Assembly (NCBI RefSeq): GCF_003334785.1 | Contig: NZ_QOWV01000009.1 | DNA length: 64,000 nucleotides | Origin: Escherichia coli | GTDB lineage: Bacteria; Pseudomonadota; Gammaproteobacteria; Enterobacterales; Enterobacteriaceae | Direction: 5' to 3' (one strand) | In this document: positions 7,542 to 9,524 of the stretch, piece by piece | Layout of the letters: every line of letters starts with the position of its first letter | Position numbering within the stretch: the first letter of the stretch is position 1 | The notes under the pieces: generated by a model | Seen by the model: the letters and a program-made list of their open reading frames with translations, nothing else | Database searches by the model: none | What the model was told of the DNA's origin: nothing | Translations under genes and position numbers: made by a program

Positions 7542-8189
7542 TTATTCGTTAGTGGCAGGATTACGAAGCGTGGGGCACAGGAGATACATCTCCAGTAAGA
7601 TGGCAACGTAATCGCGGGCTTCTTTTTTAAGATCAAAAGATTGCGGGGCAAAGAGCCAGTTTTCCATCAGGCCGGAAATATAGCCGCGCATAATAATTGC
7701 TGCGCGACGCGTCATTAAATCCGCAGGCAACATTTTCGCTTCAATACAATGTTTTAACGTTTGTTCTATACGGTCATAACTTTCCAGACAGAGATTACGT
7801 TGTGCCTGTTGCACAACAGCCATTTCTCCGACAAATTCGCATTTGTGGAATATAATCTCCATCAATAATCGACGCCGTTCTTCTGTCACCGTGGATTCAA
7901 GAACATGAATTAATATCTCTCTTAATACTGAGAGTGGATCGCCAGGGAATTTTGCCTGATACTCAAGCTCTAGTTCACCAATATTGGATTCTGACAGTTC
8001 CCAGATCTCACTGAACAAATCCGACTTGTCTTTAAAATGCCAGTAGATTGCACCGCGCGTAACGCCAGCTGCTTTTGCAATCTCGCCCAGCGAGGTGGAT
8101 GATACCCCCTGCTGTGAGAAAAGACGTAGAGCCACATCGAGGATGTGTTGGCGCGTTTCTTGCGCTTCTTGTTTGGTTTTTCGTGCCAT
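7542..8189 (-). CDS. acrR: TetR-family repressor of acrAB
   Basis: ORF 7542..8189 (-), 215 aa, [52 protein letters not shown] (TetR HTH); divergent from acrA; intact. Confidence 0.95.
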
Positions 8190-8217
8190 ATGTTCGTGAA
8201 TTTACAGGCGTTAGATT

Positions 8218-8241
8218 TACATACATTTGTGAATGTATGTA
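8218..8241. promoter_or_regulatory. AcrR operator (24-bp palindrome) in the acrR-acrA divergent promoter region
   Basis: TACATACATTTGTGAATGTATGTA read directly; matches the AcrR operator as I recall it from the literature. Confidence 0.8.
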
Positions 8242-8330
8242 CCATAGCACGACGATAATATAAACGCAGCAATGGGTTTATTAACTTTTGACCATTGACC
8301 AATTTGAAATCGGACACTCGAGGTTTACAT

Positions 8331-9524
8331 ATGAACAAAAACAGAGGGTTTACGCCTCTGGCGGTCGTTCTGATGCTCTCAGGCAGCTTAGCCCTAACAG
8401 GATGTGACGACAAACAGGCCCAACAAGGTGGCCAGCAGATGCCCGCCGTTGGCGTAGTAACAGTCAAAACTGAACCTCTGCAGATCACAACCGAGCTTCC
8501 GGGTCGCACCAGTGCCTACCGGATCGCAGAAGTTCGTCCTCAAGTTAGCGGGATTATCCTGAAGCGTAATTTCAAAGAAGGTAGCGACATCGAAGCAGGT
8601 GTCTCTCTCTATCAGATTGATCCTGCGACCTATCAGGCGACATACGACAGTGCGAAAGGTGATCTGGCGAAAGCCCAGGCTGCAGCCAATATCGCGCAAT
8701 TGACGGTGAATCGTTATCAGAAACTGCTCGGTACTCAGTACATCAGTAAGCAAGAGTACGATCAGGCTCTGGCTGATGCGCAACAGGCGAATGCTGCGGT
8801 AACTGCGGCGAAAGCTGCCGTTGAAACTGCGCGGATCAATCTGGCTTACACCAAAGTCACCTCTCCGATTAGCGGTCGCATTGGTAAGTCGAACGTGACG
8901 GAAGGCGCATTGGTACAGAACGGTCAGGCGACTGCGCTGGCAACCGTGCAGCAACTTGATCCGATCTACGTTGATGTGACCCAGTCCAGCAACGACTTCC
9001 TGCGCCTGAAACAGGAACTGGCGAATGGCACGCTGAAACAAGAGAACGGCAAAGCCAAAGTGTCACTGATCACCAGTGACGGCATTAAGTTCCCGCAGGA
9101 CGGTACGCTGGAATTCTCTGACGTTACCGTTGATCAGACCACTGGGTCTATCACCCTACGCGCTATCTTCCCGAACCCGGATCACACTCTGCTGCCGGGT
9201 ATGTTCGTGCGCGCACGTCTGGAAGAAGGGCTTAATCCAAACGCTATTTTAGTCCCGCAACAGGGCGTAACCCGTACGCCGCGTGGCGATGCCACCGTAC
9301 TGGTAGTTGGCGCGGATGACAAAGTGGAAACCCGTCCGATCGTTGCAAGCCAGGCTATTGGCGATAAGTGGCTGGTGACAGAAGGTCTGAAAGCAGGCGA
9401 TCGCGTAGTAATAAGTGGGCTGCAGAAAGTGCGTCCTGGTGTCCAGGTAAAAGCACAAGAAGTTACCGCTGATAATAACCAGCAAGCCGCAAGCGGTGCT
9501 CAGCCTGAACAGTCCAAGTCTTAA
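8331..9524 (+). CDS. acrA: multidrug efflux pump periplasmic adaptor AcrA
   Basis: ORF 8295..9524 starts at TTG; start placed at ATG 8331 (MNKNRGFTPLAVVLMLSGSLALTGC lipobox), 397 aa. Confidence 0.95.
   Translation: MNKNRGFTPLAVVLMLSGSLALTGCDDKQAQQGGQQMPAVGVVTVKTEPLQITTELPGRTSAYRIAEVRPQVSGIILKRNFKEGSDIEAGVSLYQIDPATYQATYDSAKGDLAKAQAAANIAQLTVNRYQKLLGTQYISKQEYDQALADAQQANAAVTAAKAAVETARINLAYTKVTSPISGRIGKSNVTEGALVQNGQATALATVQQLDPIYVDVTQSSNDFLRLKQELANGTLKQENGKAKVSLITSDGIKFPQDGTLEFSDVTVDQTTGSITLRAIFPNPDHTLLPGMFVRARLEEGLNPNAILVPQQGVTRTPRGDATVLVVGADDKVETRPIVASQAIGDKWLVTEGLKAGDRVVISGLQKVRPGVQVKAQEVTADNNQQAASGAQPEQSKS

What the first reader, a model, noticed from the sequence alone, without database searches (positions are those of the whole stretch)
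7542..8331. Intact acrR and AcrR operator: wild-type control of the AcrAB efflux pump
acrR encodes a full-length 215-aa repressor with no frameshift or insertion. The 24-bp operator TACATACATTTGTGAATGTATGTA is intact in the 141-bp acrR-acrA spacer. acrR loss-of-function or IS insertion here is a common route to multidrug and solvent tolerance, so this locus looks like a drug-susceptible wild-type configuration.
Basis: partly seen in the sequence, partly recalled or inferred. Interest (0 to 1): 0.3.

Follow-up and report, generated by a model that had tools for sequence, protein, structure and literature searches.

The report
Ordinary wild-type acrR–acrAB control region
This is the textbook, unmutated E. 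coli switch (repressor gene acrR, its 24-bp DNA binding site and the neighbouring activator site) that controls the AcrAB drug-efflux pump; it is base-for-base the same as in the K-12 reference strain, so it is real but ordinary.

Summary
acrR lies at 7542-8189 on the minus strand and encodes 215 aa. The spacer to acrA, 8190-8330, is 141 bp. The 24-bp palindrome TACATACATTTGTGAATGTATGTA occurs once, at 8218-8241. Window 1-18188, which covers acrR, the spacer, acrA and acrB, has no differences from E. coli K-12 MG1655. The AcrR protein is identical to crystallised AcrR (PDB 2QOP/3BCG). There are therefore no AcrR substitutions, operator mutations or IS elements.

- A perfect mar/sox/rob box sits at 8170-8189, over the first codons of acrR.
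- The operator spans the -35 and -10 hexamers of the acrA promoter-like site.

In at least 120 other species the same palindrome arms occur, in nearly all cases between divergent acrR-like and acrA-like genes. This includes species whose repressor is only 35-45% identical.

The wild-type reading is supported at locus level. "Drug-susceptible" cannot be inferred for the strain. AcrR is one modulating layer of control, and marR, soxR, rob and the drug-target genes lie outside the window. The strain is a natural K-12-like E. coli, not K-12 itself. Already known; low interest.

The parts
7542..8189 (-). acrR coding sequence, 215 aa, a TetR-family repressor of acrAB
   Evidence: ORF. NCBIfam equivalog NF007949 AcrR scores 419 bits against a cut-off of 271. 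Pfam finds TetR_N at residues 16-62 and TetR_C_2 at 84-202. It is 215/215 identical to PDB 2QOP/3BCG. It is annotated acrR, WP_000101737.1, in MG1655.
8170..8189 (-). mar/sox/rob box ATGGCACGAAAAACCAAACA, the activator site for MarA/SoxS/Rob (RamA in Salmonella). It overlaps the first 20 nt of acrR.
   Evidence: It is the only match to AYNGCACNNWNNRYYAAAYN in 64 kb, where 0.05 is expected. The same 20-mer, at the same position (-161 to -142 from the acrA start), is required for RamA binding in Salmonella by EMSA (PMC2527123). Mean conservation is about 97% over 84 other species.
8190..8330 (.). 141-bp divergent acrR-acrA control region
   Evidence: The 141-bp length is stated in PMC9769551. 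The spacer is 139-144 bp in 80 of 86 related loci.
8218..8241 (.). AcrR operator: 10-bp arms TACATACATT / AATGTATGTA around the central TGTG
   Evidence: Exact single match and a perfect inverted repeat. It is the published AcrR site (PMC9769551, PMC10597343) and is also bound by EnvR (PMC9780535). The same arms lie between divergent acrR-like and acrA-like genes in 107 of 107 loci that hold both genes.
8216..8245 (+). acrA promoter-like site: -35 TTTACA (8216-8221), 18-bp spacer, -10 TACCAT (8240-8245). The operator covers most of it.
   Evidence: Consensus scan gives 9 of 12 matches. Both hexamers are conserved in the 85-sequence alignment. This is a consensus match only; the transcription start was not determined here.
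8255..8284 (-). Candidate acrR promoter: TTAATA (8284-8279), then TATATT or TATTAT (8262-8255)
   Evidence: Consensus scan only, 9 of 12 matches. This is a prediction.
8260..8281 (.). Imperfect palindrome ATAAACGCA-gcaa-TGGGTTTAT in the acrA leader and over the acrR promoter candidate. Its role is unknown.
   Evidence: I3 (8 of 9 complementary). It overlaps a conserved block at 8264-8279.
8310..8323 (+). acrA leader: TCGGA (8310-8314), matching the secondary CsrA site described in Salmonella, and Shine-Dalgarno GAGG (8320-8323)
   Evidence: Sequence. CsrA sites AAGGA and TCGGA are described in the Salmonella acrAB leader (PMC5727465). The block 8311-8327 is conserved. CsrA binding in E. coli was not tested here.
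8331..9524 (+). acrA, periplasmic adaptor of the pump, 397 aa
   Evidence: NCBIfam NF011604 scores 885 bits against a cut-off of 765. It is identical to MG1655.
9547..12696 (+). acrB, RND permease, 1049 aa
   Evidence: NCBIfam NF011706 scores 2422 bits against a cut-off of 2150. It is identical to MG1655.

Best explanation
This is the native, unmutated acrR-acrAB regulatory module of an E. coli chromosome.

Shown from sequence: acrR and acrAB are transcribed divergently from a 141-bp spacer. The 24-bp palindrome spans the -35 and -10 hexamers of the acrA promoter-like site. An activator box lies just upstream, over the acrR start codon.

Taken from the literature: AcrR is a TetR-family homodimer. 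It binds the palindrome as a dimer of dimers, one monomer per 10-bp arm. It represses acrAB and its own gene. MarA, SoxS and Rob activate acrAB, and EnvR/AcrS can bind the same palindrome.

Inferred: bound AcrR occludes RNA polymerase at the acrA promoter. Ligands bound in the C-terminal domain release the repressor.

Because every base from acrR through acrB equals the K-12 reference, repression, activation and pump sequence should be those of the reference strain.
For: - Exact coordinates and uniqueness of the operator.
- No differences from MG1655 over window 1-18188.
- AcrR identical to PDB 2QOP/3BCG.
- NCBIfam equivalog hits above cut-off for AcrR, AcrA and AcrB, and Pfam TetR_N plus TetR_C_2.
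- The promoter-like hexamers overlap the operator.
- A single perfect marbox at 8170-8189, identical in sequence and position to the RamA site mapped by EMSA in Salmonella (PMC2527123).
- Published operator sequence, 141-bp spacing and dimer-of-dimers model (PMC9769551, PMC10597343).
- Comparative support: the same arms lie between divergent acrR-like and acrA-like genes in 107 of 107 loci with both genes. The palindrome sits 27-29 nt from the acrR start in 83 of 86.
- The recognition helix TRGA[IV]YWHF is invariant even where overall identity is 35-45%.
Against: Nothing in the sequence contradicts it. The limits are these:
- Promoter positions are consensus matches, not mapped starts.
- No expression or binding data exist for this strain.
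- The comparative set was selected by requiring exact arms, so it shows reach, not the rate of change.
- Phenotype depends on loci outside the window.
Confidence: 0.97

Rival explanations
1. The locus is wild type, but the pump is still overexpressed or the strain is still resistant. The cause would be changes elsewhere: marR, soxR or rob regulators, target mutations, or acquired genes. In that case an intact acrR says little about susceptibility.
For: The activator box is intact and ready to respond (PMC2527123). In Salmonella, deleting acrR did not significantly alter susceptibility (PMC9780535, Table 2). In solvent-tolerant mutants marR mutations gave more tolerance than acrR::IS5 (PMC3514110). 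The title of Ma et al. 1996, as cited in PMC3514110, calls AcrR's role 'modulating'. The identical 790 bp occurs in roughly a quarter of sampled complete E. coli genomes from many sources.
Against: Within the window nothing points to it. The lon gene and its upstream region (32708-35249) are identical to MG1655; Lon degrades MarA and SoxS (own knowledge). The rest of the genome is not available.
Confidence: 0.25
2. The window is simply the laboratory strain K-12 MG1655, which would make the finding trivial by construction.
For: No differences over window 1-18188.
Against: There are 19 single-base differences between 18189 and 41016. Eleven of them are clustered synonymous changes in ampG. Perfect matches to both 1-25000 and 39001-64000 occur in natural isolates, for example NZ_CP028732.1 strain H3 and NZ_LR134231.1 NCTC9087.
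Confidence: 0.02
3. The palindrome is a chance AT-rich repeat with no regulatory role.
For: None.
Against: No matches in 100 shuffles. About 0.27 exact matches to the 20 fixed bases would be expected in 298 Gb (hand calculation, 298e9/4^20), yet at least 120 species have it. In 115 of those 120 an AcrR homologue lies within 1.5 kb. Binding has been shown experimentally (PMC9769551, PMC10597343, PMC9780535).
Confidence: 0

Closest known systems
E. coli K-12 acrR-acrAB locus (AcrR, b0464; PDB 2QOP/3BCG; operator of Su et al. 2007 as quoted in PMC9769551)
   Same: Every base of acrR, the 141-bp spacer, acrA and acrB. The operator, marbox and gene order mscK-acrR-acrA-acrB-tomB are also the same.
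   Different: Nothing within the locus. The surrounding chromosome differs from MG1655 at 19 positions between 18189 and 41016.
Salmonella enterica acrR-acrAB control region
   Same: A 141-bp spacer, a 24-bp palindrome bound by AcrR and EnvR, and the activator box ATGGCACGAAAAACCAAACA at -161 to -142 (PMC2527123, PMC9780535, PMC5727465).
   Different: Salmonella uses RamA as its main activator. Its leader has a primary CsrA site, AAGGA, which is absent from the E. coli spacer; only TCGGA is present, at 8310-8314 (PMC5727465).
EnvR/AcrS, TtgR and MtrR (TetR-family repressors of RND pumps)
   Same: The same fold family and the same divergent repressor-pump layout. EnvR binds the same palindrome (PMC9780535). 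Sequence hits: the NCBIfam acrEF/envCD operon regulator model (EnvR) at 179 bits and the MtrR model at 167 bits, both below their equivalog cut-offs; the TtgR structure chains at E 1e-44 and MtrR at E 1e-32.
   Different: They are paralogues or orthologues in other systems. The protein here passes only the AcrR equivalog cut-off.
Disrupted acrR alleles in natural E. coli
   Same: The same locus and the same flanking genes.
   Different: NZ_AP022105.1 has acrR::IS1. NZ_CP173466.1 retains only the 5' 153 nt of acrR. The window has neither.

Membership tests
AcrR (TetR/AcrR-family local repressor of acrAB) | Protein matches the AcrR equivalog model above its curated cut-off | tested here: met
   NF007949 scores 419.3 bits against a cut-off of 271, covering 1-214 of 216.
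AcrR (TetR/AcrR-family local repressor of acrAB) | N-terminal TetR helix-turn-helix domain plus a MAATS-type C-terminal ligand domain | tested here: met
   Pfam TetR_N at 16-62 (E 2e-19) and TetR_C_2 at 84-202 (E 3e-53). Identical to the solved AcrR structure 2QOP.
AcrR (TetR/AcrR-family local repressor of acrAB) | Encoded divergently from acrAB, with a palindromic operator in the shared spacer | tested here: met
   The layout is conserved in 107 of 107 related loci.
AcrR (TetR/AcrR-family local repressor of acrAB) | Binds the operator and is released by ligands | not testable with these tools
   Known for the identical protein and site from EMSA (PMC9769551, PMC10597343).
AcrAB RND efflux pump | Adaptor and permease match the AcrA and AcrB equivalog models above cut-off and are adjacent on one strand | tested here: met
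   AcrA scores 885.2 against 765. AcrB scores 2421.8 against 2150. The genes lie at 8331-9524 and 9547-12696.
mar/sox/rob regulon promoter | 20-bp box matching AYNGCACNNWNNRYYAAAYN upstream of the core promoter | tested here: met
   Single perfect match at 8170-8189 on the minus strand, with 0.05 expected. The identical box was mapped by EMSA in Salmonella (PMC2527123).
mar/sox/rob regulon promoter | Activation by MarA, SoxS or Rob in vivo | not testable with these tools
   Stated in the literature for E. coli acrAB (PMC9769551 introduction).
Resistance-associated acrR or operator mutant | Substitution, frameshift, IS insertion or deletion in acrR, or a change in the operator, relative to the susceptible reference | tested here: not met
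   No differences from MG1655 across the locus. R45 and A41 are wild type. Compare the disrupted alleles.

The most novel reading that the evidence does not exclude
The exact 10-bp operator arms are retained at a fixed place between divergent acrR-like and acrA-like genes in more than 100 species. These reach Aeromonas and several Betaproteobacteria, whose repressors are only 35-45% identical overall. Their DNA-binding domain is 62-72% identical and the recognition helix is invariant.

If this has not been described, it defines one nearly frozen operator word for a very large clade of RND-pump repressors. That would predict cross-regulation between paralogous or horizontally acquired repressors, as is known for EnvR.

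A conserved imperfect palindrome at 8260-8281 in the acrA leader could be a further, unassigned control element.
Probability: 0.15. Interest if true: 0.3.

Novelty: already known. Interest (0 to 1): 0.07.

Why it matters
It matters only as a negative result. This stretch of chromosome has not taken the acrR route to efflux-mediated multidrug or solvent tolerance, and it can serve as a clean reference allele. It gives no new biology. The comparative by-product, very deep conservation of the operator arms and of the spacer architecture, is a modest point. It may help in predicting operator sites for AcrR-like repressors in other bacteria.

Tried and rejected
- **K-12 itself.** I tested whether the window is K-12. 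It is not: 19 differences lie beyond 18188.
- **Extra AcrR sites.** I looked for them near the operator. Two 24-mers with 10 mismatches flank it, at 8185-8208 (+) and 8257-8280 (-), against about 0.13 expected per 200 bp at the window-wide rate. The region is AT-rich, and both overlap elements conserved for other reasons (the marbox; the leader and acrR promoter candidate). I therefore do not claim them as sites.
- **RNA families.** An Rfam scan of the whole window found no RNA family in the acrR-acrA region.
- **Su et al. 2007.** I tried to read this paper for the footprint and promoter mapping, but it is not held. The operator-promoter overlap therefore rests on the consensus scan and on my memory of that paper.
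- **Window 50001-64000.** This stretch could not be compared base by base with MG1655, because the locus file L003 was not available to the script. It matched natural isolates perfectly.
- **Searches not used.** I did not run the large protein-database searches or structure prediction, because the protein is identical to a solved structure.

Full report
**What is in the sequence.** The stretch 7300-8600 was read directly. The ORF list gives a 215-aa ATG-initiated ORF at 7542-8189 on the minus strand. It also gives the acrA and acrB ORFs on the plus strand; acrA's annotated ATG is at 8331. The spacer 8190-8330 is 141 bp. The quoted 24-mer occurs exactly once in the 64-kb window, at 8218-8241, and none of 100 shuffles gave a match even with three mismatches allowed. 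It is a perfect inverted repeat: 10-bp arms TACATACATT and AATGTATGTA around TGTG.

**Identity of the locus.** A search of 5,426 complete E. coli genomes places the segment between mscK and acrA, with 100% identity to many strains including K-12 MG1655. The MG1655 annotation gives dnaX, apt, ybaN, priC, rsmS, mscK, acrR, acrA, acrB, tomB, hha and onward, with coordinates that coincide with the window's ORFs.

A base-by-base comparison shows no mismatches over window 1-16450. The first difference of the whole window is at 18189. So acrR, the spacer, acrA and acrB are all identical to the reference. The translated AcrR is identical over 215 of 215 residues to the crystallised E. coli AcrR, 2QOP/3BCG. 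It passes the NCBIfam AcrR equivalog cut-off, 419 against 271 bits, and AcrA and AcrB pass theirs. It has the Pfam TetR_N and TetR_C_2 domains. Residues hit in published mutants, M1 and A41 (PMC3514110), are wild type, as is R45, which I recall as a fluoroquinolone-associated site (own knowledge).

**The source strain.** The window is not K-12 itself. Nineteen single-base differences lie between 18189 and 41016, eleven of them synonymous and clustered in ampG. Both ends of the window match several natural isolates perfectly. The source is a K-12-like commensal-type E. coli.

**Anatomy of the control region.** The consensus scan finds a promoter-like site on the acrA strand: TTTACA at 8216-8221 and TACCAT at 8240-8245, 18 bp apart. 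The operator at 8218-8241 covers nearly all of it. A candidate acrR promoter lies on the other strand at 8284-8255. These are consensus matches, not mapped starts.

The mar/sox/rob box consensus AYNGCACNNWNNRYYAAAYN has a single perfect match in the window, ATGGCACGAAAAACCAAACA at 8170-8189 on the minus strand. This is the first 20 nt of acrR (0.05 expected). The same 20-mer, at the same distance from acrA (-161 to -142), was shown by EMSA deletion mapping to be needed for RamA binding in Salmonella (PMC2527123). The leader carries TCGGA at 8310-8314, which matches the secondary CsrA site of the Salmonella leader. The primary AAGGA site of Salmonella is not present in E. coli (PMC5727465).

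**Mechanism.** The literature gives the following. acrR lies 141 bp from acrAB and is divergently transcribed. AcrR represses acrAB and itself. The 24-bp site is the AcrR site. AcrR is thought to bind it as a dimer of dimers, one monomer per 10-bp arm (PMC9769551, PMC10597343). MarA, SoxS and Rob activate acrAB (PMC9769551). EnvR binds the same palindrome and represses more strongly (PMC9780535).

Two steps are inferred. Repression works by promoter occlusion, given the overlap seen. Derepression follows ligand binding in the C-terminal domain.

**Comparative evidence.** About 0.27 chance matches would be expected in 298 Gb (hand calculation). The results were:
- 115 of 120 loci have an AcrR homologue within 1.5 kb of the palindrome.
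- All 107 loci with both genes show divergent acrR-like and acrA-like genes with the palindrome between them.
- The spacer is 139-144 bp in 80 of 86 loci.
- The palindrome lies 27-29 nt from the acrR start in 83 of 86 loci.

The set spans Enterobacterales, Aeromonas and several Betaproteobacteria. In the distant members the repressor is 35-45% identical overall. Residues 1-60 are 62-72% identical, and TRGA[IV]YWHF is invariant. This explains why the arms are retained.

An alignment of 85 spacers shows the marbox (about 97%), both acrA promoter hexamers, and two leader blocks (8264-8279 and 8311-8327) as conserved. The stretch 8191-8217 is loose. Because the set was chosen by exact arms, it shows the reach of the operator, not its rate of change.

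**How unusual is an intact locus?** It is not unusual.
- 5,384 of 5,424 genomes carry the 790-bp region as one place covering at least 80% of it.
- In an even-step sample, 14 of 60 genomes are 100% identical to the window, and the remainder mostly 99.1-99.9%.
- Disrupted alleles exist but are rare. Examples are acrR::IS1 in NZ_AP022105.1 and others and an internal deletion leaving 153 nt of acrR in a urinary isolate.

The word 'susceptible' should not be carried over to the strain. AcrR is described as a modulating local repressor (title of Ma et al. 1996, as cited in PMC3514110). In Salmonella an acrR deletion did not significantly alter susceptibility (PMC9780535). marR mutations contribute more than acrR::IS5 to solvent tolerance (PMC3514110). 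The regulators and targets that usually decide resistance lie outside the window.

Inside the window, lon and its upstream region are identical to MG1655. Lon degrades MarA and SoxS (own knowledge). So nothing in the window points to derepression.

**Verdict.** This is a real, correctly described and fully known feature in its most common state. Novelty: already known. Interest is low. The only mildly new-looking by-product is the depth of conservation of the operator arms and spacer geometry.

Noticed in passing
window 8218-8241; loci L004-L123: The exact operator arms TACATACATT-N4-AATGTATGTA occur in at least 120 species representatives: Enterobacterales, Aeromonas, and Betaproteobacteria such as Acidovorax, Comamonas, Polaromonas and Ottowia. 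In nearly all cases they lie between divergent acrR-like and acrA-like genes, even where AcrR is only 35-45% identical. The central 4 bp vary (TGTG, TATG, CGCG and others).
   Followed up: partly
window 8260-8281: Imperfect palindrome ATAAACGCA-gcaa-TGGGTTTAT, with 9-bp arms and a 4-bp centre. It lies in the acrA leader and over the acrR promoter candidate, and overlaps a block conserved across 84 species. No factor has been assigned to it.
   Followed up: partly
window 8185-8208 (+) and 8257-8280 (-): Two 24-mers with 10 mismatches to the operator flank it at about 33-39 bp. About 0.13 would be expected per 200 bp at the window-wide rate. Published 'AcrR sites' in other promoters have similar mismatch counts, so these may be chance in AT-rich DNA.
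   Followed up: partly
window 8300-8330: The Salmonella acrAB leader has a primary CsrA site (AAGGA) and a secondary one (TCGGA). The E. coli spacer has only TCGGA, at 8310-8314.
   Followed up: no
window 40536-41016 (ampG): Eleven synonymous differences from MG1655 within 481 bp, while the flanks are identical. This looks like a short recombination patch.
   Followed up: partly
window 18189, 18262 (ybaY); 25471 (decR); 38435 (tig): Non-synonymous differences from the MG1655 record: YbaY L128Q and S104P, DecR T33P, and trigger factor P128L. Which allele is ancestral was not determined.
   Followed up: no
window 32708-35249: lon and its upstream region are identical to MG1655, with no IS element in the lon promoter. 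From my own knowledge, lon promoter insertions raise MarA/SoxS levels.
   Followed up: partly
window 35134-35229 (+), 530-594 (-), 17398-17494 (-): Rfam matches above the gathering score: sraA sRNA between clpX and lon, the dnaX frameshifting element, and 4.5S (SRP) RNA ffs.
   Followed up: no
L124 (NZ_CP173466.1) and L125 (NZ_AP022105.1): Natural E. coli isolates with a damaged acrR. One is a urinary isolate that keeps only the first 153 nt of acrR. The other is a strain named ESBL with IS1 inside acrR. In both, acrA is the same protein as in K-12.
   Followed up: partly
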